DNA of 64,000 nucleotides from Naegleria gruberi (lineage: Eukaryota). Both the position numbers and the translations under genes were made by a program. The notes under the pieces were generated by a model. The model was not told where the DNA came from. It did no database searches and worked only from the letters and a program-made list of their open reading frames with translations. Shown piece after piece: positions 37,586-60,600 of this stretch; the first letter of the stretch is position 1, and every line of letters begins with the position of its first letter. The DNA lies in assembly GCA_000004985.1 (NCBI GenBank), contig GG738846.1; one strand, 5' to 3'.

Positions 37586-40500
37586 ATGAAAAAAATGTTC
37601 GCCACTGGTCCCACATCATCTTCAACAACACGTGAATCATCAGGTCAAAACAATGATAATGATACCACAAGAGTCTCATCAACACATATCATTGTTACAC
37701 CCGATACAACTTTTCCTACTTTCCAACTTTCCAATACTCTCCATTCTACAGTCCCACAACAAACAATTGACAAGAGAACAAGTTATAGCGCACTGGAGGA
37801 GAGAAAGAGAATTAGAGCAAAGAGGAAACAGTTTAATAATTATCAACAACAAGAAGGACAATCTACAGAAGAACCAACATATCCACCAGTGAATAAGTCG
37901 TCTTCATCATCGTATTATCAAAATTATAATGACACAATTCAAAGACCAATACAACCTCCAACAAGATCTGTGATTACAGAGGAGGAAATGAACAAGGATT
38001 TGGCAACCTTCAAGAGGCAAATAAAGAAGGAAAAGAGGGAGAAACAAAGAGTTTCAAAGAAAAAAGAAAACAATTTTAATCCTCTGGAAAGTAATATTAC
38101 CATTGATAATAATTCCGAATCAAACGATAAAGCTTCATCATCAGTAGCTTCTACTAGTAGTAGTAATGTTACTGCAAGTAACATCTATGACAGGAAACAA
38201 AGAAACAAGAAGGAAAAGAAACCTAATGATTTTAGGAGGGTTAAAAACTACTTCCCTCCAGTTCCAGAAGGACAACAATTGAATGTTCAAGGCCCTCGTT
38301 TAATTGAATCTCAACCAGAATCTTTAAGTGCCACAACTAACAAGCCTTCAACAAGAATTAGAGAAAACAAAAGGGTAAATAGCCAAGCTATACAAAACAA
38401 TTCAATTGAGAGCTCTGTGACTTTACCTGTCGAAAAGTTACCAAAAGCAAAAACCAAGAAGGAAAACCAGTTACTTCCTCAAATAGGTCAAATCAAATTG
38501 AACAATGAACAACATACAAATACTAAACCAAAAGCTATGGATTCACTTCCTATTCATGAATTTTCATCTTCAATTATCAATTCTATTGAAGAAAATCAAG
38601 TCACTGTCATAACAGGTTTCACAGGTTGTGGAAAGAGTACTCAATTACCCCAAATCGTTTTGAAACACTATATTGAGAATAGTAATACACACCGTTTGAA
38701 AAAAATCAAAATTGTTTGCACTCAACCAAGAAGATTAGCAGCTACTAGTTTAGCTAGAAGGGTCAATAATGAAATGAAGTCTTATTTGGACAAGAATGGA
38801 TTGAATGAATTGTTCAAAGGAAGAATTTCTGGTCATATAATTGGTGGAGAGGCAGTTTTAGATCATAATACACCAATTGTTTATGCCACAGAAGGATGCT
38901 TGACTCAAATCATCATGGGTATGCATTCTTCATCAACATCAAGCTATGAAAATTTTCATAATGAATTTTCACATATAGTACTAGACGAAATTCACGAAAG
39001 AAAAGTCGACACAGATCTCCTTCTTTATTTTGTGAGAGAAATTGTCAAGGTTAATCCTAAAATTAGAATCATTTTGATGAGTGCCACACTCTCACAAGAA
39101 AAGATTTGTAAATATTTTGAGAGTTACCTTAATATGGATATCTCATCCGCAAAGAACAATGGACAAAATAATGGGGGAAATGGAGAGGATGATGAGCTTT
39201 TCGTTTCAAACATAGAAAAGAAGGTTCCTGCAATTCATATTCCTAGTGGATGTTATCCCGTAACTGAAAACCACATTGAAGATGTGATTACCCTTTTATA
39301 CAACCCTGTTTCTAATCCTCTCCCAGAGGAAGAATTATTGAGCAAGCAGCAATTTGCTCCCTTGCTTTCTAAACCATTGAGAGCCAGCATAAAACCAGAG
39401 AGAAGAATTTTAGGAGCCCGTCTTATTGAATACCTACACGTACGTTATCCATTAAATCAATCCATACTAGTATTCCTTCCAGGTATGATGGAGATAGAGG
39501 ATTTCGCTGATGATTTGACAGCTAATTTTATTGGAGGGGCTTCAGCAGTTGACTGTCCATACGATATTCATATTCTTCACTCCCTCATCGCAGAGCAAGA
39601 ACAAGAAGAATCCCTTTTACCACCAAAAGAAGGTAAAAGAAAGGTTATTCTCAGTACTAACATTGCCGAGAGCTCTATCACTGTTCCAGATGTTGTTATT
39701 GTGATTGATTTTTGTCTATGTAAAGGCAAATATTGGAATGAAAATTTTAATTCAGAAGTTATGGGACTTGATTGGGTTTCCAAAGATTCTTCCAAACAAA
39801 GGAAGGGAAGAGCAGGTAGAGTTTCTCCTGGTATTCTTTTTAGAATGATTACAAGAGACGAGTATGAAATGTTAGATGACTCTGTCGTACCAGAAATACA
39901 GAGAAAACCTCTCTCTTCTGTAGTTTTGCAAATACTCATGTTCAATGGAGCTTACGTTGATGACCCAACACAATTCAAAGGTTTACCTAAGAATTACAAA
40001 ACTCCATCAGAAGTTTTGCAAAAGTGTCTAGATCCTCCAAATCAAAGTTTGTTAGAGCAGGCTTACTATCAACTTGAATCACTTGGAGCCATTGTGAATC
40101 ATCAATTGGGAAATTCTCAAACTGATTCCAATAGTGTTGTGAATCAATATGAATTAGATGAAGCTTACTTGGTTACTAGCATCGGAAAATTCTTTTCTTT
40201 AATTCCAACCGAGTTAAATGCAGCCTACCTTTTACTAATTGGTTATTCATTGAATTTATTACCAGAGTGCATAATTATTGTTTCCATATTGTCCAGATCA
40301 GTGCCAATTCTTGCCTTCTCATCTTTAAAGCTTCTAAGCGCAAGAGCTATTTATTCATTTGATAATGGATCTGAGAGTGATTTAATTGCTGGATTCAATG
40401 CTTATAACCGCTTCAAACAACTTCAAACATTGAGGAGAGATCACAAAATAACTCCCAGCCAATTTAATAGTCAACTGGCCAAGGAAATGCTTGCTCTGAA

Positions 40501-43408
40501 GAAGATGATTGAAATTGATTCTTTAGTGTTACAAATTTCTCAATCTCTCTACAGAGCCTATGGTATATTTATTGAAAACCTTACTCCGCATGCTATCAAA
40601 CACTCAAGGCAAGAAATTAAACCTATTCAATACTCAACTGATAAGGTGCTCAGCACTGAAAAGATGAATATTATTAAGGCACTCATTGCCACATTGTACT
40701 ATGAACAATCAGTGAAGGGAGCTCTCAAGAAGGAACACAAGTCACTCAAAGAAATTGAATGCAGCTTGCAAATCAAAGATCAAGCCCTTTCACTCACAAA
40801 TAGTGATGAGATGCAGAAAGTTTTCTCAGAACTTTTCCATAAATTTGACGGAGGTGTTGTTGATTGTACAAAGATCAAGTTCCAATCCGATAAGAAGATT
40901 AATCTCGCCTATAACCTTCCTGTATCTGATTCATCATTTGTGTTGCCACTTACAGAAGCTCAAAAGAAGGACCCACTTTTCCCAATTAAATTGCTACAAC
41001 GTATGATCAAAGGTAGTTCACAAGAATCAAAAGAAAAGAAAAATCAAACACTTGATTATACACAGGTGAGACAAAGTTTGCTTTCAGTGAGGGATGATGA
41101 CCAAATTTTTGGTATTTTCAGAGGACTTCCAGGTGAATTGATCAAGTCCCATGGATTGAAATTCAAAGCAATGTCTTCAGCATTTGATAGAAAGATTTCA
41201 TTTATTCATCCACAATCAGATGCAATGAGAAAACAAAGAATAATCATTTCTAGAGATTCTGTTTCTCACCCTTGGGTTGATTTAACAATACCAGAAAAAA
41301 TTCTCGTCTCTGGAAGTGTATCAATCAAGGATATGACCATGTTACTTGATAAGAATACGACACTTCCTGACATTGAATTTTTTTATGAAATGTCCTTAGT
41401 ATTATTCTTGCCTTTGATTTATCCAAGAAGATTTTGCCTTTTCAAACCAAAGTATGGCGATCAAACATTTTGCCTCATATCAGAACTCTTTGAAAAGATG
41501 AAACCACATGAGAAGACTGAATACGTTCAAAATAAGATTAATCTTGATTTGAATGCTATCTATTTAATTTCTAGTGGTGTTAAAAACTTTGACTTGGTTT
41601 TACAAATTCTGAGAAGTTCCATCCAAAAGAAGATTACTGAATTACTAGCCAATCAACCAGTTGTTGATGTTGGTCTGTTATCCGTTCAAATAACTGATCT
41701 ACTCAATAATGCCAAGAATTACCTTTCTCACAAAGGTTACAATAGAAACATCGCCAAAATTATCTCCGTCTTACCTGCAGAAGATGAAGCTGTGGGAGGA
41801 GATGATGAATCATGTGGTGATCACATTCTTAGAACTAGTAGTTTCCAAAGAATTTCTCAAAGAATATTGAACCTATTGTCTAAACAGTGTCTTCTTTCTC
41901 CTGATGATCCACCTGTCGAAATCAAAAAGAAGGGTAAAACAACTATAGAAATAAGCTGTTCATATGATTATCAATACCTACAAGCCAAATATCTCTTGTT
42001 GCGAGAGATTAACAATGATTATGCTGTTTTTGCACATCCAAAACAAGCATTTGTATGCTTGGAAGTTGAGAAGAATAATTTGAAAGACTTTTTATCATCA
42101 ATGGTATACTTTTCAAGTTATGAGGATAAATCTGGAAAGAATAGAGAATTCTATACAATCAATAGAATTCCAGCAACCAAACGGTTAAATATTAGCATAG
42201 ATGAAGGTAAAGAAGGTAATAATGTAAGAAAATCATTCAATACCAAGATGAAATCTGACAAGCTTACTAATGGAGGATTTCTTCTTCAACCTTTTACACG
42301 CTCGATCTCAGCAGATGCTTTCAGAGAAAAAATTCCAGCCAATAGCAGCAATGATGAATACATGCAAGTGTATGCATACTTTGGGAAACAAGTTTTTTAT
42401 CAAGCAAAGGCAGGAGCAACAAAGATTCACTCTCAACAAAAGGGAGTAACATTTGAGTCACTTAGAAAGATGAAGATTGGTAACGATAATGATGTCAAAA
42501 CTCTATTCTTACACTTTATAGATGCAAGACGTCAGCCTGATTCTTCTCTAATTTCAAACTTCTTACTTTCCAAGAAAGCAGAAAATAAGGAAAGTGTATT
42601 CTCCAACAATCATTACTTTAAGAGAATTCTCGTTGATAAGAATCCAGTTTTGGGAAAGCAAAAGGAGTACATTTCACTCAATATTGTAGACATGGACAAG
42701 AAGGAGAGATTTACAATCTTGCTCTACCTCGACAGAGAACAGACCTACAAGGATGAAAATACTGACTTGGTTAAATGTTCTATGCAAAGCTGGAGAAGAT
42801 CTGATACCAAACTGATTTATTTAGATTTTGTCTCTCCAATACTTGTACAACCAAATGATAATGCTGAAACAATATCGAATAAGAATGAAAATACATTGGA
42901 CGTGAGATTTTCCAAAGTTACTCACTCTAGAACTATCAAGGAAGGGTTTAGAGATTTAATTCCAGCATCCATCCAAGAGTTGGAGTCAAGATTGTGGTAC
43001 AATGAGAGCGACTTTACACTTTATTATTGTTATGAGAAGGATGATTCTATATTATTTGCCAATCTGAATGATTTGAATTTGTCATTTGGCAGTACATTGG
43101 AAAATGATGAGTTGTGCAAATTGAGAGCTGAAACACCACTTGCACGTCTCTCAATCGATTCTATTCACTACGATATCAAGGAAAATTTGCACTTTAACGA
43201 TATTAAGATTCAATTTAAGAATAGAACCGACATTTCACATCCAACCCAAAGAAAATCTTTCACTACCCTTAGGGTTTGTAGCCATCAATTACAAGGAGCT
43301 TTAGGTAAAACTTTTGATAGGTCACAAGTGAAAGAATTCATGCAAATGATTCTCTCTTGGAAGGATTTGATGAATGAAAGTAGTTTGAAAACTCTAGAAG
43401 AAGAATAA
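37586..43408 (+). CDS. DEAH-box (DExH) RNA helicase with about 1000-aa C-terminal extension
   Basis: Motif I TGCGKSTQLPQ, motif II DEIHER, SAT, TNIAESSITVPDVVIVID, QRKGRAGR. Single 1940-aa ORF with ATG at 37586. N-terminal 340 aa are low complexity. Confidence 0.75.
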   Translation: MKKMFATGPTSSSTTRESSGQNNDNDTTRVSSTHIIVTPDTTFPTFQLSNTLHSTVPQQTIDKRTSYSALEERKRIRAKRKQFNNYQQQEGQSTEEPTYPPVNKSSSSSYYQNYNDTIQRPIQPPTRSVITEEEMNKDLATFKRQIKKEKREKQRVSKKKENNFNPLESNITIDNNSESNDKASSSVASTSSSNVTASNIYDRKQRNKKEKKPNDFRRVKNYFPPVPEGQQLNVQGPRLIESQPESLSATTNKPSTRIRENKRVNSQAIQNNSIESSVTLPVEKLPKAKTKKENQLLPQIGQIKLNNEQHTNTKPKAMDSLPIHEFSSSIINSIEENQVTVITGFTGCGKSTQLPQIVLKHYIENSNTHRLKKIKIVCTQPRRLAATSLARRVNNEMKSYLDKNGLNELFKGRISGHIIGGEAVLDHNTPIVYATEGCLTQIIMGMHSSSTSSYENFHNEFSHIVLDEIHERKVDTDLLLYFVREIVKVNPKIRIILMSATLSQEKICKYFESYLNMDISSAKNNGQNNGGNGEDDELFVSNIEKKVPAIHIPSGCYPVTENHIEDVITLLYNPVSNPLPEEELLSKQQFAPLLSKPLRASIKPERRILGARLIEYLHVRYPLNQSILVFLPGMMEIEDFADDLTANFIGGASAVDCPYDIHILHSLIAEQEQEESLLPPKEGKRKVILSTNIAESSITVPDVVIVIDFCLCKGKYWNENFNSEVMGLDWVSKDSSKQRKGRAGRVSPGILFRMITRDEYEMLDDSVVPEIQRKPLSSVVLQILMFNGAYVDDPTQFKGLPKNYKTPSEVLQKCLDPPNQSLLEQAYYQLESLGAIVNHQLGNSQTDSNSVVNQYELDEAYLVTSIGKFFSLIPTELNAAYLLLIGYSLNLLPECIIIVSILSRSVPILAFSSLKLLSARAIYSFDNGSESDLIAGFNAYNRFKQLQTLRRDHKITPSQFNSQLAKEMLALKKMIEIDSLVLQISQSLYRAYGIFIENLTPHAIKHSRQEIKPIQYSTDKVLSTEKMNIIKALIATLYYEQSVKGALKKEHKSLKEIECSLQIKDQALSLTNSDEMQKVFSELFHKFDGGVVDCTKIKFQSDKKINLAYNLPVSDSSFVLPLTEAQKKDPLFPIKLLQRMIKGSSQESKEKKNQTLDYTQVRQSLLSVRDDDQIFGIFRGLPGELIKSHGLKFKAMSSAFDRKISFIHPQSDAMRKQRIIISRDSVSHPWVDLTIPEKILVSGSVSIKDMTMLLDKNTTLPDIEFFYEMSLVLFLPLIYPRRFCLFKPKYGDQTFCLISELFEKMKPHEKTEYVQNKINLDLNAIYLISSGVKNFDLVLQILRSSIQKKITELLANQPVVDVGLLSVQITDLLNNAKNYLSHKGYNRNIAKIISVLPAEDEAVGGDDESCGDHILRTSSFQRISQRILNLLSKQCLLSPDDPPVEIKKKGKTTIEISCSYDYQYLQAKYLLLREINNDYAVFAHPKQAFVCLEVEKNNLKDFLSSMVYFSSYEDKSGKNREFYTINRIPATKRLNISIDEGKEGNNVRKSFNTKMKSDKLTNGGFLLQPFTRSISADAFREKIPANSSNDEYMQVYAYFGKQVFYQAKAGATKIHSQQKGVTFESLRKMKIGNDNDVKTLFLHFIDARRQPDSSLISNFLLSKKAENKESVFSNNHYFKRILVDKNPVLGKQKEYISLNIVDMDKKERFTILLYLDREQTYKDENTDLVKCSMQSWRRSDTKLIYLDFVSPILVQPNDNAETISNKNENTLDVRFSKVTHSRTIKEGFRDLIPASIQELESRLWYNESDFTLYYCYEKDDSILFANLNDLNLSFGSTLENDELCKLRAETPLARLSIDSIHYDIKENLHFNDIKIQFKNRTDISHPTQRKSFTTLRVCSHQLQGALGKTFDRSQVKEFMQMILSWKDLMNESSLKTLEEE

Positions 43409-51325: not shown

Positions 51326-52615
51326 ATGTCAATACTCGAAGAACAAAACACACTCCCATTCTCTGAACAAGAATCACCAGAAAATTATCTTTATTTTCTT
51401 ACCACAGTTAATCCAACAGATTTTATTAATACGTCGGAGAGAGGAAGTAAAATTGTAAAATTATTTTCGGAACACTTTTTACCTTTGCCCTTCTCATCGA
51501 ATGAGGATGGATCTGACTTGACAGAGGAAACAACAGTAATTTTACTTGTTCCATACTTTATTGCATTGGGAACTTTGCAAATTAGACAGGAAAATACTCA
51601 GCCATTCAATATGGAATTGCATCAAAAAAATAGAAAGATTCAATTGAAACAAGCAAATGAATATTTTTGTAAATTTTTAAATTTGGCTTTACAATATGAT
51701 CAGGTTAATGATGATTACCTCTCTTGGGTATTGCCTCATACAATGAATAGGGATGATGATGAGGAGGAACAAGTTGCAAAATCTACCAAGAAACAGGATA
51801 AGGCATTCGAACAATTGATGAATGACAGAAGTCAAATGGTATTGCGAATGAAGACAAAGAATGCCTTAGCACAGGAGTTATTTTCAAACGTTGAGGAAAT
51901 GTCTGAATTGGAAATTTCTAGATTATTGTCGAGTGTTTCTCTTGGAGAGGATTCAAGCAAGAAGGTTTCAGAACAAGTGAAAAAGAAAATGTTGAACATT
52001 AGAGATTATATTAACTTTTGCGTTCTAGACACTTTGGAGAATTTAGCTTCCAACAGTAGAGAAGAAGGAATGCTCAATGCAGTTTCTGCTCGTCCTTCCA
52101 TGCCTCAACATCCTTCCCAATCGTATCAACAACAAAGTGGTTCAACATCAGGACAACCAATTTCCCATCTTAAGGCTACATCTATTAATGATGTTCTTAA
52201 TAACCGTGGGGTTCTCTCACAAATGGGCTATAATATGATCTTACTTCCAAATAATAATGGTGGCAATACTGGAAACAAGTCAACCAGTAGTGGCAATTCA
52301 TTACAAAAGAAGGCACTCGCCAATCAGTCCATTCAATCCAATATTATCAATAATAGAACAACAAGAGAGGATATCAAAAGTAGAGTGTTTGGATCCTATG
52401 TTCCTGGACCAACAGTATCTCTGGAAGAGTTTGCCCGACAGGAATGTATCGACATGCACCAAAGAGAAGAAAAAGACAAGCAATTCAAACAAGAACAGAC
52501 TCAAAAGAAGAAGGATGACGAAGAGGAAGAAGATGAAGAGGAATTGAAAAAGAAGAGAGTGTGGGAAGATTGGAAAGATGATCATGTTAAAGGTTCTGGT
52601 AATATGAGAGATTAA
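51326..52615 (+). CDS. TAP42/alpha4 (IGBP1)-like PP2A-family phosphatase regulatory protein
   Basis: C-terminal signature VFGSYVPGPTVSLEEFARQE...EEEEDEEELKKKRVWEDWKDDHVKGSGNMRD matches the TAP42-family C-terminus (R-E-W-D-D-W-K-D-x-H-P-R-G-x-G-N). ATG at 51326. Confidence 0.7.
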   Translation: MSILEEQNTLPFSEQESPENYLYFLTTVNPTDFINTSERGSKIVKLFSEHFLPLPFSSNEDGSDLTEETTVILLVPYFIALGTLQIRQENTQPFNMELHQKNRKIQLKQANEYFCKFLNLALQYDQVNDDYLSWVLPHTMNRDDDEEEQVAKSTKKQDKAFEQLMNDRSQMVLRMKTKNALAQELFSNVEEMSELEISRLLSSVSLGEDSSKKVSEQVKKKMLNIRDYINFCVLDTLENLASNSREEGMLNAVSARPSMPQHPSQSYQQQSGSTSGQPISHLKATSINDVLNNRGVLSQMGYNMILLPNNNGGNTGNKSTSSGNSLQKKALANQSIQSNIINNRTTREDIKSRVFGSYVPGPTVSLEEFARQECIDMHQREEKDKQFKQEQTQKKKDDEEEEDEEELKKKRVWEDWKDDHVKGSGNMRD

Positions 52616-53430
52616 AATACATCATAATAATTTTCACTCTTGACCACAATCAATGAAGGTTTGAGACATGTTCTCACAAATTCTACAACTTGTTTCACAG
52701 CTTCCACCATTCTATTTCCATTAATATCAATAAACACTTTCAATTCACATGATGGGTTACCATATTTATATCGTCTCCAAACTTTGGAAATGCTTTTTTG
52801 TTCCATTTCATCCAAACAATTGGACCACCAAAATTCAATCTCTGGATATTTCTTTTTAGTTTCCTCAATATAATCCTTTGAAATATCCAAACACAATAAT
52901 TTTGCACAATTTTCAAATAATATTTTAGAGGTATCACCACGAGCAGAACCAATCTCAATCACAAAGTCTCCCGATTGCATTATTGGATCAACACCTCCTT
53001 TCTGTTGCTGTACAAAATCATACGATTTGAAAACTTGTGTTTTTGCAAGCATTCGGAAATCTCTTGTATCTCTACAAACAATCACCTTTTCTTGATGCAA
53101 TAAACTCATGATGGGAATCATCTTGCTTGGAGAGACATGATAACAAGACTGATCTTTACAATATTGAATTTTATATTTTCCAACAAATTCACTCCTCTCA
53201 CTTTCTACCACCTTGTTTACAACTCTGGCAATGGAGTATACTTTTTTCCCTTGAATTATCCATACTAGATTATATTTTGAAAATAGATATTCCTCATTGG
53301 AAGTAATTAATTGGTGATCAAAATTATTATATTCCACTTTTCCGAGATTATATAAAATTAATCCATCTTTTACTCCTTTCATTCCATCGTCATTGTTATT
53401 TTGATGAGTAATGGAAGTTTGTTCCACCAT
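52612..53430 (-). CDS. Class I SAM-dependent methyltransferase-like protein
   Basis: Motif I-like VIEIGSARGDTS followed by LLCLDIS. ATG at 53430..53428. Its stop overlaps the TAP42 stop in a shared TTAA. Confidence 0.4.
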   Translation of the reverse strand: MVEQTSITHQNNNDDGMKGVKDGLILYNLGKVEYNNFDHQLITSNEEYLFSKYNLVWIIQGKKVYSIARVVNKVVESERSEFVGKYKIQYCKDQSCYHVSPSKMIPIMSLLHQEKVIVCRDTRDFRMLAKTQVFKSYDFVQQQKGGVDPIMQSGDFVIEIGSARGDTSKILFENCAKLLCLDISKDYIEETKKKYPEIEFWWSNCLDEMEQKSISKVWRRYKYGNPSCELKVFIDINGNRMVEAVKQVVEFVRTCLKPSLIVVKSENYYDVF

Positions 53431-54822: not shown

Positions 54823-57561
54823 ATGGGAATCAATAAGGTTACACCAATAGAGAATTTTCCAACTCCCTCCTATAACAACCACACGTTGGATCCCAACGCT
54901 TGCGAATTGCAGGAAATATCATCAAATGGATCTTTTAATTATTTACAATCATCAATAGGGAAATTGAGTGCTAGAAGTTTTGATGTGAGGGCCGTTACCA
55001 AAACTTCCTTCTCCAACACTATTCATGTCTCAAGCAAACGGATGGGGAGACCAGATACACCTCCCCCGAACGACCTCAAAAGTATAATTCCCTGGTTCAG
55101 ATATAATTGCTTAACACTGGCTAACTTGGTGATTGTGTTTGTGCTCATATTTATATTATTGTTCTGTATTGCTTTTGCCTTGACCATTGTGCTCTTCACA
55201 GGTCATATTTCATCAGAATTGAGTTCGGTAACAATTGGTGTCATAAAATCCAAGGTGGATCTCTTTCTGAAGGAACGATTAGGTGTCGTAGAGACTGTTG
55301 CCTTTACTGCTCAACAAGATGTACGAATGCTTATCAATCAGTTTGCTTATTCCCCATCACCATTCTCCTCTTCTGCTCTCTCTTCCCATATCAGAGAATA
55401 CCTCTCCTCACGCTTAATTTACCACAACATTACCTCGATAGGGTTATATTTTGAAAATTGCTTGGGCAATGCAAACACTTCTTCCATGTACAAATGCCAA
55501 CTTGATCAATCAACAGATTTTGTAAATAGCTATATTTGGATGAATCAAACAATGAATTCAGATTTGAACACTTACCAAACAAGTGAACATCGAAATACAT
55601 CCATCACCATTGATACCTCCCAACCTCTTCAAACCATAGTCTCGAGTTCCACTAAAATTCCATTAAACTTTGAAGATTCAACTCTCCTCCACTCTGATTC
55701 CGCCTACCGTACCTTTTCCAATGCATTCTATTTAGATATGAAAGACAAACTTGTCAACCTGCCAGCCTATCAAGCTCTACAAGGTGTATGGTCACCATCC
55801 TCTAAAATAGATCCATCCAAATTTAATCTAGTCTTTACTGTGCCTATTTTTGATGCCAATAATTTGCAACTCTATGGAATAACCCAGGTGGAATATCCCT
55901 TACAAGCTTTGGCTCATTTAATGAGGACATTTACTTATCAATCAAAGGGTTACATTGTTCTTTCAGATTTGAACACTGAAAAAGTGGTTATTAGTTCTCT
56001 TCCAGATTCTTACACTCTTAAATCGATCTATGATATTAAGGAACTGAACATTGGTAAACTAATGACGTATCTCAAACAGAATTCCTTCCTCGATTTCAAT
56101 TCTGAAATCTCAGTCAGCGGAGTTGAATTTGAGGGGCTGGTCTACAATATGCTCAATACAAAATTCTCCTACAATAACGTTAACTTAGGGATGACCATTG
56201 TATTGGTCGATGATTCGGTTCAAGAATTCCACAATGATACCCTGTACTTGGCTATTTGTATTTCAGTTGGTTATGTAGTAATTGGACTTGTAATGGCTAT
56301 TATTTTAGGGTTCTTAATTTCGAAACCTCTCAAAGCATTGAGTGTTGAGTTTGGTCACATTAAGCACATGGACCTTGAGAAGGTTAGACAACACTTTTCA
56401 ATGTTTGGTGAATTCCAAGTTCTCTTCCAAAAGTTGGATGAAATGGTTGTTTGGTTGAATGATGTTCGTTCTTTCATTCCTAACAGTATCTTGATGGAAA
56501 TTAGAGGTGATTCAATTGACAATGATGTTACAGAGACTGAAATTGTTACGACAAACATCAATGTAAAAGACAAATTAGCAGAGACCAAAGGAAGAGCAAG
56601 TAGTGAAATTCCAGAAAACTCAATCGCTAACATTGCAAAGGGGTTCAAGACCTATCAAGAATACTCAGTTTTGTATATGCGTATCATGGACTTGGAATCA
56701 TTAACAGTTACCGAGAGAGCATTCTACTTTGAAAAGGTTCTTGAAATTTCATCAAAGATTGCAAAGAAAAACAATGGTGATATCCAATTATTGGATATTA
56801 GCAGAATACGTATTTACTATTGTGATCCAAATAATGAAAATGCCTCCAAAAAGGTGATTACAATGGCTTTGAAAATTTTGAGTGTTGTTGCTGATTTTAG
56901 CTCAACAATGGAGCAACAAGGAAAGTTGCCGTGCAACTTGATAATTTCAATCTCTACGCAGAAGGCTCTCGTTGGTAATATTGGTACTAGGGAGCATAGA
57001 ATCCACACCATTGTTAGTAGATCCATTTCATTGTGTGAACAAATGATGCTCATCGCCAAATCATTGAATATTTCACTTATTGTAGATTCTAACTCTTGTG
57101 CTGCAAACTTGGGAAACTATGTTTATAGGCCAGTTGACAGAATTTCAGTGGAAGACGATTTGATGGTTATTTATGAAATCTTTAGAGAAAATCAAGTAAA
57201 TGACCAAGAATGGATGTACGAACTGGATCAAAAGGAAAAGAATAGTAGCTACAATGAATATCAAAGTGCATTCCAAACCTTATTGAAGGGAGGACCCAAA
57301 ATTGAAGAGTACCGTGAAGCCATCTTGAAAGTTAGACGATTCAAAGGATCTAATGGTTTTGATCGAGATCTTACTGCTGACCATCTAATCTTTATGCTGG
57401 AAAGAGTTTCTGAAAGTTGTGAGAGAGGCCTTTCTGAAAAGTTGAGCCCACAATTCACTTCATCCTATCAATATTGTTCCAGAATATATACAGAATGGGA
57501 AAATAAGTTTGGTATGGATGTGCTGAAAATTAGACCAGTTGAAATTGTCAATAATAAATAA
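54823..57561 (+). CDS. Receptor-type class III nucleotidyl cyclase-like protein (ACG-like topology: TM - extracellular domain - TM - cyclase homology domain)
   Basis: ATG at 54823. TM1 at about aa 95-130 and TM2 at about aa 480-505 flank a roughly 350-aa Asn-glycosylation-rich domain. The cyclase-homology domain runs from about aa 610 (YSVLYMRIMDLESLT ... NNGDIQLL ... VGNIGTREHRIHTIVSRS). Two metal-binding Asp and the Arg appear conserved, but the transition-state Asn appears replaced. Confidence 0.55.
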   Translation: MGINKVTPIENFPTPSYNNHTLDPNACELQEISSNGSFNYLQSSIGKLSARSFDVRAVTKTSFSNTIHVSSKRMGRPDTPPPNDLKSIIPWFRYNCLTLANLVIVFVLIFILLFCIAFALTIVLFTGHISSELSSVTIGVIKSKVDLFLKERLGVVETVAFTAQQDVRMLINQFAYSPSPFSSSALSSHIREYLSSRLIYHNITSIGLYFENCLGNANTSSMYKCQLDQSTDFVNSYIWMNQTMNSDLNTYQTSEHRNTSITIDTSQPLQTIVSSSTKIPLNFEDSTLLHSDSAYRTFSNAFYLDMKDKLVNLPAYQALQGVWSPSSKIDPSKFNLVFTVPIFDANNLQLYGITQVEYPLQALAHLMRTFTYQSKGYIVLSDLNTEKVVISSLPDSYTLKSIYDIKELNIGKLMTYLKQNSFLDFNSEISVSGVEFEGLVYNMLNTKFSYNNVNLGMTIVLVDDSVQEFHNDTLYLAICISVGYVVIGLVMAIILGFLISKPLKALSVEFGHIKHMDLEKVRQHFSMFGEFQVLFQKLDEMVVWLNDVRSFIPNSILMEIRGDSIDNDVTETEIVTTNINVKDKLAETKGRASSEIPENSIANIAKGFKTYQEYSVLYMRIMDLESLTVTERAFYFEKVLEISSKIAKKNNGDIQLLDISRIRIYYCDPNNENASKKVITMALKILSVVADFSSTMEQQGKLPCNLIISISTQKALVGNIGTREHRIHTIVSRSISLCEQMMLIAKSLNISLIVDSNSCAANLGNYVYRPVDRISVEDDLMVIYEIFRENQVNDQEWMYELDQKEKNSSYNEYQSAFQTLLKGGPKIEEYREAILKVRRFKGSNGFDRDLTADHLIFMLERVSESCERGLSEKLSPQFTSSYQYCSRIYTEWENKFGMDVLKIRPVEIVNNK

Positions 57562-57605: not shown

Positions 57606-60600
57606 TTATTGGAAAGCAACTTCAACCTTATCCTCATTTACAATTCTCTTTCTTTGATAAAAGAGCATGTAAGCATTTGAAGTTTTCAATTCCTTCTCTG
57701 TAAGTGGCGAAACAGACGAATCGTTGAAACAATACCATCTACTATCTTCACAATTTTTAGCATATGAATAATAGTGACCACCATAGAGACCTCCTGTATG
57801 ACAACTGATAGCAAATAAATCATAGAGCATGTGGTCTTCTGGCTTTCTAACCATATAATCACTCAAGTCAAGATTATAGATTGGATAATCAACAAGTGCA
57901 TTCACTTTCTCCCTACCAAATCTATTAAAACCAAATCTCTTGAGATGGATAATTAAAATTTCAGGGCTAGACCAAACACAACACTGTTTGAATGCACAAA
58001 CATGTTTCTTACAATCAGGGCAATACCATTGGTCTCTTTCTCCGAGTTGTTCCATTTCACTATTCAATTTCAAACAATCGTCCAGACTAATGTTTTGAGA
58101 TCGAGGGGCCTCGTTAGTAATATTTTGTTCTGCAACATGAACGGTTACTGTTTCTTTAGTTTTCAACATTTTAACATCAAACCAATCAACAGAGAAATAA
58201 TAATTATCCTCCTGTTGTAAGTATTCCTTAACCATATCATCTCTATCATCATAAAGAATTGGAATGCCACATGTATCATTTACAACCTCAACAGACTTGT
58301 CAATAACTGTAAATTTAAATGGAATATTGGCTGGATCAAAGGCAGGGAAAAGTGTCTGACGTAAAATTTCAATTCTTTCAGCAAGAGGATATTCTTGTCC
58401 ATCCTCTTTGGTCGGTTGTAAATTAGTTTCAGGGTCTTCTGGTGATTTCTTGGCTACTCTTTGTAAATGAGACCAAAGAATATCATAAAAGTCCTTTGTG
58501 GAAATTTCCTTCTTTACGAATAATACAAATGGAATACCCACACTCTTGAATTTTCCCTCTTCGGAAGGGTATCTCTGTCTTATTGGAATAATTAAATACT
58601 TCTCAGGAGAGTAATCATCTGGAACATCAGCACATAATACTTTTGGAGTTGATTTGGCGTTAGGATCAATAATCTTAACACTATCATTAAAAGAGAATTG
58701 TCTTCCAATAGAAAATCCAGCCATGGCAAAGAATTGGAGTTTTTGTGGGTCTCTTCCACTAACTTTAGCAAATTGAGTGGCAAGTACTTGAACAGTTGAT
58801 TGCTTTGGTAACTCGACAGTATATTTAGTTGCTCTTCCTCCATTTTCTGTATTCAATAAAATTACATCCAATCGGTGAGGCATTGATTTACCAACAGGAA
58901 CTGAAAGATACTATATAAGTGTAAATAATTATTCAATTTAAAAAAATCCTTACCATAAATGGGTCAAACTTGACTGAAATCTTGTTACAAACTTTGAATA
59001 CATATTAGCAATAAAATACAAATAACAAACTTACCATTACAAATAAGAGTAGACTTGAGTTGTCCTTGAAATAAATCTACAATTACACTATCATTTCTCT
59101 TCAAATGTTGTTCCCAAGATTCTTTTGCAATCACTTCATCAGGTCGTCCGTCATAATCCTTTGCTTCAATATATGGTTTGTTGATTACCTTGTTTAAATC
59201 TTCATGTAAACCATCCAATAAATATGATGTCAATTCTTGAGAGTCGTGTTGATTATAGCCAGAGAATTGAGGGGCAAATTGACTGATGGCATACTTAAAG
59301 TTGGTTGGAGTAAAGTTGGCACCACCACTCCACATTTCTTTAATGAGAGAGGCAAAGTTATTAGCAAGTTTACCCTTAGTTCCCAATGGATTGCTTGTAT
59401 TGATATGCTTTGCATAGAGTCCACTTATAAAGTAATTTTTAAGAGGTACAGTGTTAGAGAGACATTGAATAGCACTGTTCATAAAGCACGTATTACCCAA
59501 ATTTCTCAATCCACACAAACCTCTCTTTTTACTCTTACCTGAGGCAGGAGTTGCAATACCAAATGTACTAAATGAATAATCCTTGATACTATCCCAAATT
59601 TCACTTAATTTACTTCTCTTTTCTTCGTCATCTTCATCTTCCTCTTCATCACTAGCATCGTTTGATTCTTGCTTTTTTTTGAAAATTTCAAGTGGAAATT
59701 CTCCACCATTTTGTTTAAACTCAAAAACGATACTTTGTCCATCAAAAATTAGAGCTTTTTCAAGAGTTTGACTCTCACTGTCAGCAATGGCACTGGCGCT
59801 TGAATCTTCCTTTCGCCACATTCTGCAGTTTTTCAAAGTTGATGTTTTCTGAATTATTGTACTTTCAAAAAGAACACAACCAAGCATTTTCAAATCCTTG
59901 GTAGCCAATTTTTTGCTTACTTGAATTGTTGTCTTGGTATCTTTCATGATTGTTCCCTTTTCATTGACCATATAAATATTGAGAATATATGGATGAATTT
60001 CTACACGTCTCATTTGATTATTTTCCAAGCCATCCACAATAACTCTTCTGACGATTTTTTGACTATTATTAATTTCTCCATACCAATGGGCTAATAAATC
60101 ATAACTCTGTATAATTATTAGTAGTAATTATTATTATAATTAGTTTGACAATAGTATTATAATAAAACTAACCTCCTCGGAAACAAACTCAAAATCTTGT
60201 CTTGTAATATCTCTTTTAAGAACTGTTGTGAATAGAACAGAACCATCTCTTGTAAAATTGGTAAATTCTGGTACTAATGGATGTTTTAAACTAAAACCAT
60301 TATAAATGAGAACTTCTTGAATAATGTCACTATTGTCAATTGGACCAGGAGCAGGAGATTTTTTATGTGATGTTTCCTTGTGTTTCTTCTTTCCAACATT
60401 TTCATTTGGATAATTTACATATTCTTTCCAAATCTTGAACCATGATGAAGAAATAATTACAAATGTGCTTCCTGCTTTAAAAGGTGACTTGTTTTCAATT
60501 GATTCTATTTTTTCCCTTTGTTTTTTAGCATCGGGTTTTGTGTAACTCGTCTTTTTACTCTTACTCTTGGCAGTAATGATCAGAGAAATGCTTCCTTTTT

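What the first reader, a model, noticed from the sequence alone, without database searches (positions are those of the whole stretch)
54823..57561. Receptor-type class III cyclase with ACG-like topology and a partly degenerate catalytic site
A 912-aa protein has two transmembrane helices bracketing a roughly 350-aa extracellular, N-glycosylation-rich domain, followed by a cyclase-homology domain. The two metal-binding Asp positions (IMDLESLT, NNGDIQ) and the transition-state Arg (IVSRS) look conserved, but the canonical Asn (N-x-x-x-R) appears substituted. The substrate-specifying residues could not be placed by eye. This could be a novel sensor cyclase, a pseudo-cyclase, or a subunit needing a partner.
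Basis: partly seen in the sequence, partly recalled or inferred. Interest (0 to 1): 0.7.

Follow-up and report, generated by a model that had tools for sequence, protein, structure and literature searches.

The report
Receptor with a dead cyclase domain
This Naegleria gruberi gene encodes a bacterial-style membrane receptor whose cyclase-like domain keeps its fold but has lost nearly all catalytic residues, and about 70 related protein clusters share that loss, so it probably signals without making cAMP or cGMP.

Summary
The 912-codon ORF at 54823-57561(+) is real. It is Naegleria gruberi NAEGRDRAFT_61889, whose public model (669 aa) starts at Met244 and lacks TM1 and half the ectodomain.

Architecture: disordered N-terminus, TM1 (98-127), double-Cache ectodomain (not CHASE), TM2 (474-501), HAMP, conserved post-HAMP helix, disordered insert (564-597), class III cyclase-homology domain (CHD, 604-789), and a family-specific three-helix module ('DEWxYELE').

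Pfam finds nothing in this protein. Homology rests on other evidence:
- A family profile hits CyaB at 1.5e-12.
- hhalign against canonical bacterial dCache-HAMP cyclases gives 99.9%, E 3e-31.

The six canonical positions read R620, L656, S660, T729, S736 and Q740, so only the class IIIb Thr survives. All roughly 70 closest 50%-identity clusters keep 0-2 of 6. Those I could name are from Naegleria, Willaertia and Acrasis. Fully canonical DKDTNR relatives appear only further out, and those named are bacterial.

The fixed 29-residue spacing from the post-HAMP Pro to metal Asp1 is replaced by a variable 51-132.

Verdict: a receptor-type pseudo-cyclase, a new variant of a known kind. How it signals is unknown. 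N-glycosylation sites are not enriched.

The parts
54823..57561 (+). Complete 912-codon ORF (stop codon included). It is N. gruberi NAEGRDRAFT_61889 / XP_002682668.1 / D2UZC5, extended 243 codons upstream of the public start.
   Evidence: ORF list. It is 100% identical to the public 669-aa model over aa 244-912. A 912-aa version exists in ENA (P0161). Homologues align from aa 21 and aa 91.
54823..55113 (+). N-terminal cytosolic tail, aa 1-97, predicted disordered.
   Evidence: AF2 pLDDT is below 50 for aa 1-88. Sequence shown.
55114..55203 (+). Transmembrane helix 1, aa ~98-127.
   Evidence: Hydropathy. It forms part of the continuous AF2 helix 99-174.
55204..56241 (+). Extracellular double-Cache (dCache_1-like) sensor domain, aa ~128-473, with a disordered insert at aa 261-299.
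56242..56325 (+). Transmembrane helix 2, aa ~474-501.
   Evidence: Hydropathy. AF2 helix 464-514. Acidic before it and basic after it.
56326..56469 (+). HAMP domain, aa ~502-549 (PLKALSVEFGHIKHMDL ... GEFQVLFQKLDEMVVWL).
   Evidence: hhalign of the family TM2-to-linker region against the same region of canonical bacterial homologues gives prob 98.8%, E 8.6e-17. The aligned stretch of P0095 carries Pfam HAMP at 260-311. P502, S526, E530 and L545 are nearly invariant.
56470..56511 (+). Conserved post-HAMP helix, aa 550-563. The family motif K-S-F-x-P-x-x-V-L-x-Q-L corresponds to K-Y-V-P-x-x-L-V in the bacterial enzymes.
   Evidence: F551 and P553 are nearly invariant or invariant. Aligned to the bacterial motif. 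AC9 helical-domain residues align to this part of the profile.
56512..56613 (+). Disordered insertion between the post-HAMP helix and strand beta1 of the CHD, aa 564-597.
   Evidence: AF2 pLDDT is below 50 for 563-597. The Pro-to-Asp1 spacing is 67 here and 51-132 in the family, against exactly 29 in 15/15 canonical bacterial homologues.
56632..57189 (+). Degenerate class III cyclase-homology domain, aa ~604-789. Catalytic positions: R620 (56680-56682), L656 (56788-56790), S660 (56800-56802), T729 (57007-57009), S736 (57028-57030), Q740 (57040-57042).
57205..57432 (+). Family-specific C-terminal three-helix module, aa ~795-870, opening with the motif D-E-W-x-Y-E-L-E.
   Evidence: A profile of this region matches 113 of the 150 sequences searched (148 database hits, CyaB and the query itself), and matches the bacterial members only weakly. 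W797, E796, Y799 and E800 are among the most conserved columns. AF2 predicts three helices. No significant PDB sequence or fold match.
57433..57558 (+). C-terminal tail, aa 871-912. Confidence is low and conservation poor, apart from a Tyr (Y884, in the 'S-Y' motif) that is nearly invariant in A2.
   Evidence: pLDDT is 39-84, mostly 53-75, in the full-length model and below 50 for much of it in the isolated model. Alignment.

Best explanation
The gene encodes a dimeric type of membrane receptor inherited from bacterial dCache-HAMP class IIIb adenylate cyclases. An extracellular double-Cache domain binds an unknown small ligand, and a HAMP domain relays the signal across the membrane.

The cytosolic cyclase-homology domain has become a pseudoenzyme. 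It keeps the fold and the beta-hairpin 'VGNxG' arm, which forms the dimer interface in real cyclases. It has no metal-binding Asp pair, no substrate Lys, and no transition-state Asn or Arg, so it cannot convert ATP or GTP to a cyclic nucleotide.

The rigid 29-residue helix that couples HAMP to catalysis in the bacterial enzymes is interrupted by a disordered insert. Output is therefore most likely non-enzymatic. Ligand-dependent changes in the HAMP and post-HAMP helix, or in the tethered pseudo-CHD dimer with its conserved 'DEWxYELE' three-helix module, would be read by a partner protein.

Shown: the architecture, the homology, the loss of catalytic residues, the family-wide pattern, and the broken spacing.
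Inferred: inactivity, dimerisation, and partner-mediated output.
For: Homology and fold:
- The family profile hits class III cyclases in the PDB at 1e-12 to 1e-9.
- hhalign of the degenerate family against a canonical profile gives prob 99.9%, E 2.9e-31.

Catalytic positions:
- The query reads R620/L656/S660/T729/S736/Q740 against CyaB's D/K/D/T/N/R, in three concordant alignments.
- D623 falls at the Gly of DIxGFT. The family has N, G or D there, the residues that tolerate that turn.

Family pattern:
- All representatives P0002-P0073 (E <= 1.1e-11) keep 0-2 of the 6 residues, and none has Asp at metal site 1.
- The full DKDTNR signature first appears at P0074.
- The fully canonical hits that could be named are bacterial (a 'bacterium' MAG and a Planctomycetales MAG). 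Those I scanned carry Pfam dCache_1 + Guanylate_cyc, with HAMP detected in two.
- Catalytic columns rank 91-178 of 218 by conservation. G718, N719, G721, W797, E800, P770, R769 and R726 are near-invariant.

Coupling:
- The Pro-to-Asp1 spacing is fixed at 29 in 15/15 canonical enzymes. It is 51-132 (apart from two outlying values of 10 and 20) in 35 family members where the motif was found, and 67 in the query.
- The inserted stretch is disordered in AF2.

The gene is not decaying:
- An uninterrupted 2.7-kb ORF sits in 35% GC DNA.
- HAMP, the post-HAMP helix and the C-terminal module are conserved across Naegleria, Willaertia and Acrasis.

Precedents:
- A Cache-HAMP receptor without enzymatic output signals through a bound kinase (bioRxiv 10.64898/2026.05.25.727664).
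- The metal-binding aspartates are described as indispensable for class III cyclases (PMC4886424).
Against: - No biochemical data exist for this protein or any family member. Inactivity is inferred from sequence.
- The residue mapping rests on alignments and a monomeric AF2 model. I could not inspect coordinates, so shifted side chains (D623, D658) reaching the site cannot be strictly excluded.
- Atypical class III cyclases tolerate some substitutions. Rv1900c lacks the Asn (PMC4886424).
- No partner protein is identified.
- The three-helix module has no recognisable relatives, so the output step is speculation.
- Expression of the gene and its true 5' end are untested.
- Organism names were obtained for only 30 of the 150 listed representatives.
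Confidence: 0.7

Rival explanations
1. Modulatory heterodimer subunit. The pseudo-CHD (or the whole receptor) pairs with a catalytically competent Naegleria cyclase subunit and tunes or blocks it, acting as a dominant-negative or ligand-gated inhibitor.
For: Class III CHDs work as head-to-tail dimers. The hairpin arm motif VGNxG and the fold are conserved. Naegleria species carry very many cyclase genes that could serve as partners: 80 CYCc proteins in N. fowleri (PMC9283941).
Against: The protein lacks both half-site sets. A heterodimer with a normal subunit would have no complete active site, so it could only inhibit, not complement. Receptor dimers are normally set by the TM, HAMP and sensor parts, which here are highly paralogue-specific. 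No partner is indicated by the data.
Confidence: 0.12
2. Nucleotide-binding sensor. The degenerate pocket still binds ATP, GTP or a cyclic nucleotide without turnover. It then acts as an allosteric or 'inside-out' input, as degenerate GGDEF/EAL receptors such as LapD do.
Against: The pocket positions are among the least conserved columns of the family and differ from paralogue to paralogue. The Lys that contacts the base, the Asn/Arg pair and the phosphate Lys position (E777) are gone. R620 occupies the metal site.
Confidence: 0.08
3. Still an active cyclase that uses unorthodox residues, for example D623 and D658 as shifted metal ligands.
For: Two Asp residues lie within three residues of the canonical metal positions. 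'IMDLESLT' superficially resembles FxDIxGFT. Some mycobacterial cyclases work with non-canonical substrate or Asn residues (PMC4886424).
Against: Three alignment methods agree on the register. The gapless stretches around Asp2 and N-x-x-x-R are anchored by SKIAKKNNG/SKIALKYGG, YYCDP/FFGDP, VGNIG/VGNFG and HTIV/YTII. Five of six residues plus the phosphate Lys are missing simultaneously. I know of no class III cyclase that works without both metal aspartates (own knowledge). Pfam fails to match.
Confidence: 0.06
4. A decaying gene: a recently inactivated paralogue on its way to becoming a pseudogene.
For: It is divergent even within its family (S709 and S732 where the family has Gly; best hit only 26% identity). 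There is no close orthologue in N. lovaniensis.
Against: A 912-codon ORF without a stop in AT-rich DNA. The family-specific motifs (P502, P553, G718, N719, G721, P770, W797) are all retained. AF2 is confident for all folded domains. The degenerate state is ancient and shared across genera.
Confidence: 0.04

Closest known systems
Bacterial dCache_1-HAMP-class IIIb adenylate cyclases (e.g. P0095, MGZ0173581.1, a Planctomycetales MAG; P0074, MBT5954377.1)
   Same: The same domain order, from sensor to a C-terminal helical extension. The TM2-HAMP-linker region aligns at 98.8% and the CHD at 99.9% hhalign probability. The VGNxG hairpin, the 'R-x-x-D' strand and the YEL strand are shared.
   Different: The bacterial proteins carry the full DKDTNR catalytic set, a fixed 29-residue Pro-to-Asp1 spacing and strong Pfam PF00211 hits (1e-22 to 1e-27). 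The window protein has 1 of 6, a 67-residue spacing with a disordered insert, and no Pfam hit.
Pseudomonas aeruginosa CyaB catalytic domain (PDB 3r5g), class IIIb
   Different: The CyaB fragment carries all six canonical catalytic residues. That CyaB is an active enzyme with a different membrane anchor is my own knowledge, not tested here.
Dictyostelium ACG (osmosensing adenylyl cyclase G)
   Same: The topology: an extracellular sensor flanked by TM helices, followed by a cytosolic CHD (PMC4399386).
Degenerate half-sites of mammalian membrane AC (C1/C2) and soluble guanylyl cyclase (alpha/beta)
   Same: These are CHDs in which one of the two symmetric sites has lost its catalytic residues. They appear among the fold and profile matches.
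   Different: In those proteins each subunit keeps one complementary half-set, so one site works (own knowledge). Here both half-sets are missing from the same chain.
Non-catalytic receptor relatives: the Cache_heme-HAMP receptor of P. azotoformans, LapD-type degenerate GGDEF/EAL receptors, and the P. aeruginosa cyclase-like ATP-binding protein 6yii
   Same: These are membrane sensor-HAMP proteins, or CHD/GGDEF-fold domains, that signal by binding rather than by catalysis (PMC6050961).
   Different: They are analogies of working principle only. No sequence relationship beyond the shared folds was found, and no kinase or protease partner is identified here.

Membership tests
Class III nucleotidyl cyclase catalytic domain (Pfam PF00211, CHD fold) | Sequence match to the Pfam model at its gathering score (21.9 bits). 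| tested here: not met
   No hit at E <= 10 for the whole protein or for aa 560-793. 22 of 60 family members match weakly, best 4e-8.
Class III nucleotidyl cyclase catalytic domain (Pfam PF00211, CHD fold) | [quoted passage not shown] | tested here: met
Catalytically competent class III cyclase | Two metal-binding aspartates (strand beta1 FxDIxGFT, and GD). | tested here: not met
   R620 and S660 occupy these positions. No member of P0002-P0073 has Asp at site 1.
Catalytically competent class III cyclase | Substrate-specifying pair: Lys plus Asp (Thr in class IIIb), or Glu plus Cys for guanylyl cyclases. | tested here: not met
   L656 sits at the Lys position. Only T729 (class IIIb type) is kept.
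Catalytically competent class III cyclase | Transition-state Asn and Arg (N-x-x-x-R). | tested here: not met
   S736 and Q740, in a gapless alignment anchored by VGNIG and HTIV.
Catalytically competent class III cyclase | Cyclase activity in vitro. | not testable with these tools
   Needs expression and an enzyme assay.
dCache_1 extracellular sensor | Double PAS-like module on a long N-terminal helix between two TM helices, with a match to dCache profiles or structures. | tested here: met
HAMP domain | A two-helix unit of about 50 residues directly after TM2, with the Pro of AS1 and the Glu of AS2. | tested here: met
   hhalign 98.8% to the region of bacterial homologues that carries Pfam HAMP. 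P502 and E530 are conserved. AF2 helices continue from TM2 to 514 and span 529-549. Pfam HAMP itself does not hit the query.
ACG-type (CHASE-cyclase) receptors | A CHASE ectodomain. | tested here: not met

The most novel reading that the evidence does not exclude
Heterolobosean amoebae (Naegleria, Willaertia, Acrasis) maintain a large, ancient family of cell-surface dCache-HAMP receptors. About 70 clusters at 50% identity were seen here. In these receptors a bacterial-type cyclase domain has been converted wholesale into a non-catalytic signalling module with its own conserved three-helix output element. This would be a receptor 'pseudo-cyclase' family, comparable in principle to pseudokinase receptors. 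It would mean that part of the very large Naegleria 'cyclase' repertoire does not make cyclic nucleotides at all. It would also mean that Cache sensors are far more common in this lineage than the single protein reported in 2016 (PMC4822843).
Probability: 0.5. Interest if true: 0.65.

Novelty: new variant of a known kind. Interest (0 to 1): 0.55.

Why it matters
Naegleria genomes are noted for an unusually large set of adenylyl/guanylyl cyclase genes (80 in N. fowleri, PMC9283941), and their roles are unknown. If a sizeable, conserved branch of these receptor-type proteins is catalytically dead, gene counts overstate the cyclic-nucleotide capacity of these amoebae. A different, non-enzymatic output from Cache-HAMP receptors would then need to be found.

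The family also offers a natural experiment. The bacterial ancestor's catalytic residues and its invariant 29-residue coupling helix were lost together, while the sensor, HAMP, dimer arm and a C-terminal helical module were kept. That pattern points to which parts carry the remaining function.

Two practical points follow. The public gene model is truncated and should be extended. Standard Pfam scans also miss both the Cache and the cyclase-like domains of this protein.

Tried and rejected
- Pfam on the whole protein and on three sub-segments found nothing. The only marginal hit was Hint at E 0.078, which I dismissed.
- The word-indexed homologue search was tried three times, with the single protein, the full-length alignment and the C-terminal-module alignment. 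It returned almost only the protein itself or unrelated cyclases. A species census of the family was therefore not possible. The exhaustive HMMER search was what revealed the family.
- The C-terminal three-helix module was searched by profile against PDB sequences (designed helical repeats and calmodulin at E >= 6e-4; compositional). It was also searched by Foldseek on a separate AF2 model (best E 1.4). No relative was found.
- The AFDB Foldseek library was not available.
I rejected it because strand beta1 aligns better three residues upstream. In addition, the family shows N, G or D at this column, as expected for the Gly of the DIxGFT turn.
- An unspliced intron as the origin of the 564-597 insert is not supported. 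I saw no in-frame GT...AG candidate by eye (the one GTAAAA...AG stretch is about 38 nt). The public model treats the region as exon, and paralogues have inserts at the same place.
- Tandem paralogues in the window: none.
- N-glycosylation site enrichment: none.
- A possible salt bridge replacing the metal site was examined. K/R at Asp1 co-occurs with D/E at Asp2 (odds ratio 3.7, p = 0.015). This is only suggestive, because the sequences are not independent and the query itself has S660.
- Literature searches found nothing on pseudo-cyclases or degenerate cyclase domains in Naegleria.
Full report
**What is there.** The window is AT-rich eukaryotic DNA (about 29-38% GC). The ORF at 54823..57561(+) encodes 912 aa and is preceded by an in-frame TAG two codons upstream. 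The only close database match is 'predicted protein [Naegleria gruberi]'. It is 669 aa long and 100% identical to aa 244-912. Its identifiers are NAEGRDRAFT_61889 / XP_002682668.1 / EFC49924.1 / UniProt D2UZC5.

The public model therefore lacks the first 243 codons. Several results favour the long form:
- Homologues align from aa 21 (P0047) and aa 91 (P0002).
- AlphaFold2 predicts TM1, the stalk helix and the first PAS-like module with pLDDT mostly 80-95.
- An ENA gene call of 912 aa exists (P0161).

**Checking the observation.**
- Hydropathy gives exactly two strong segments, aa ~98-127 and ~474-501. Their flanks fit an in-out-in topology.
- The ectodomain's 5 N-x-S/T sequons equal the shuffled expectation of 5.2 +/- 2.0. 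'N-glycosylation-rich' is therefore not supported.
- Pfam finds nothing in the protein or its parts.
- A single-sequence search of the PDB already finds the class IIIb adenylyl cyclase CyaB (3r5g), at E 6e-3 for the whole protein and 8e-4 for the domain.

**The family.** An exhaustive HMMER search of 1.84 billion cluster representatives gave 440 hits at E <= 1e-3 and 78 at E <= 1e-10. All are about 20-29% identical to the query.

Thirty representatives were looked up. The close ones are from N. gruberi, N. lovaniensis, Willaertia magna and Acrasis kona, or are unnamed metagenome proteins. The more distant ones that carry intact catalytic residues are bacterial where named.

Among 60 aligned members, 22 hit Pfam Guanylate_cyc weakly, 12 hit dCache_1 and 5 hit MCP-like_PDC_1. 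The profile of this alignment hits solved class III cyclases: CyaB 1.5e-12, human sAC 8e-12, rhodopsin-GC, Cya2, bPAC, AC9 and Rv1625c. With its N-terminal part it also hits dCache ligand-binding domains of chemoreceptors at about 1e-5.

**Structure.** The full-length AF2 model has mean pLDDT 77.9, with mostly 82-98 over aa 610-870.
- The TM2-to-linker region aligns with the same region of the bacterial homologues at 98.8% hhalign probability, E 8.6e-17. That region carries Pfam HAMP in P0095 and P0108.

The architecture is therefore: N-tail, TM1, dCache, TM2, HAMP, conserved helix (K-S-F-x-P-x-x-V-L-x-Q-L), CHD, C-terminal helices. This is the architecture of bacterial dCache-HAMP class IIIb cyclases. 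ACG of Dictyostelium, by contrast, has a CHASE sensor (PMC4399386).

**The catalytic site.** Class III cyclases are defined functionally by two metal-binding aspartates, a substrate-specifying pair and a transition-state Asn/Arg pair. The aspartates are considered indispensable (PMC4886424).

Three alignments give the same register: phmmer to CyaB, a family HMM with CyaB threaded through it, and independent MAFFT alignments of 64 degenerate and 16 canonical domains compared by hhalign. CyaB's D/K/D/T/N/R correspond to R620/L656/S660/T729/S736/Q740. Only the class IIIb Thr survives. The Lys of the 'VKG' phosphate-binding hairpin is E777.

- D623 lies at the Gly of DIxGFT. The family has N, G or D there, as expected for that turn.
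- D653 lies in the GGxI motif seven residues before Asp2.
- R733 lies where the canonical bacterial consensus has the Asp of 'GD.VN' (Arg in CyaB).

**Degeneracy across the family.** The loss is not peculiar to this gene. Every representative from P0002 to P0073 keeps 0-2 of the six residues, and none has Asp at metal site 1. The complete DKDTNR signature appears only from P0074 onward, and the fully canonical hits that could be named are bacterial.

Within the degenerate family the six catalytic columns rank 91-178 of 218 in conservation. The near-invariant columns are G718, N719 and G721 (the hairpin arm), R726, D755, R769 and P770, and E796/W797/Y799/E800 at the start of the C-terminal module.

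**Loss of coupling.** In 15 of 15 canonical bacterial homologues, the Pro of the post-HAMP motif lies exactly 29 residues before metal Asp1. In 35 family members where the motif could be located the distance is 51-132, median 77, with two outlying values of 10 and 20. In the query it is 67. The extra residues (aa 563-597) are predicted disordered. The rigid helical link that transmits HAMP movements to the catalytic dimer in real cyclases is therefore interrupted.

**C-terminal module.** Residues ~795-870 form three helices. They open with the most conserved family motif, D-E-W-x-Y-E-L-E. A profile of this region matches 113 of the 150 sequences searched, and matches the bacterial enzymes only weakly. 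It has no significant relative in the PDB by sequence or by fold.

**Interpretation.** The most economical reading is a receptor-type pseudo-cyclase. Ligand sensing (dCache) and transmembrane relay (HAMP) are under constraint. So are the CHD fold and its dimer arm, and the C-terminal helical module. Catalysis and its mechanical coupling have been abandoned. I put 0.7 on 'no cyclase activity, functional non-enzymatic receptor'.

The output step is inference, supported only by analogy. A partner might read the HAMP and post-HAMP helix, or the pseudo-CHD with its helical module. The analogies are a Cache-HAMP receptor that signals through a bound Ser/Thr kinase, LapD-type degenerate GGDEF/EAL receptors, and the cyclase-like ATP-binding protein 6yii.

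The rivals, given in detail in their own section, are:
- inhibitory heterodimer partner (0.12);
- nucleotide-binding sensor (0.08);
- unorthodox active enzyme (0.06);
- decaying gene (0.04).

Complementation of a partner's half-site, as in AC C1/C2 or sGC, is excluded in principle, because both half-sets are absent.

**Comparison with the literature.** Cache-HAMP-cyclase proteins related to N. gruberi genes were noted in the Euglena genome paper (PMC6366073). [quoted passage not shown] Eighty CYCc proteins were counted in N. fowleri (PMC9283941). Full-text searches found no description of a degenerate, non-catalytic branch of these receptors. I therefore rate it a new variant of a known kind.

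**Limits.**
- There is no biochemistry.
- Organism names are known for only a fifth of the listed representatives.
- The family census is incomplete because the word-indexed search failed.
- The K/R-D/E co-occurrence at the former metal site is not corrected for phylogeny.

Noticed in passing
window 54823-55551: The public N. gruberi gene model (NAEGRDRAFT_61889, 669 aa) starts at Met244 of the ORF. It therefore omits the N-terminal tail, TM1 and the first half of the dCache domain. Homologues and the AF2 model support the 912-aa form.
   Followed up: yes
window 56470-56682, and homologues P0074-P0147: In 15 of 15 canonical bacterial dCache-HAMP cyclases, the Pro of the post-HAMP 'KYVP' motif is exactly 29 residues before metal Asp1. 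This invariant spacing is lost (51-132) in the degenerate heterolobosean family.
   Followed up: yes
window 57205-57432: A three-helix module opening with D-E-W-x-Y-E-L-E is the most conserved family-specific element. It has no detectable relative in the PDB by sequence or by fold.
   Followed up: partly
family alignment, columns of R620 and S660: In the degenerate family, K/R at the former metal-Asp1 position co-occurs with D/E at the Asp2 position (22/9 against 14/21, odds ratio 3.7, p = 0.015, not corrected for relatedness). In some paralogues a salt bridge may fill the old metal site.
   Followed up: partly
window 57606-60037, minus strand: A ubiquitin-specific protease gene (Pfam UCH) is split over two ORFs, 57606-58883 and 58985-60037, presumably by a short intron. 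It is convergent with the cyclase-like gene, and the two stop codons are only about 45 nt apart.
   Followed up: partly
window 51326-53430: A TAP42-like gene lies at 51326-52615(+). A 272-aa ORF at 52612-53430(-) has no Pfam match.
   Followed up: no
window 37586-43408: A very long uninterrupted ORF of 1940 aa lies on the plus strand. It was not examined.
   Followed up: no
metagenome homologues P0018, P0072, P0136: Some environmental relatives (1150-1175 aa), labelled 'ankyrin repeat protein/class 3 adenylate cyclase', also carry degenerate sites (GVSTKQ, ESQSTK, KSSTKK). The pseudo-CHD therefore also occurs in ankyrin-repeat-containing proteins, at least as annotated.
   Followed up: no
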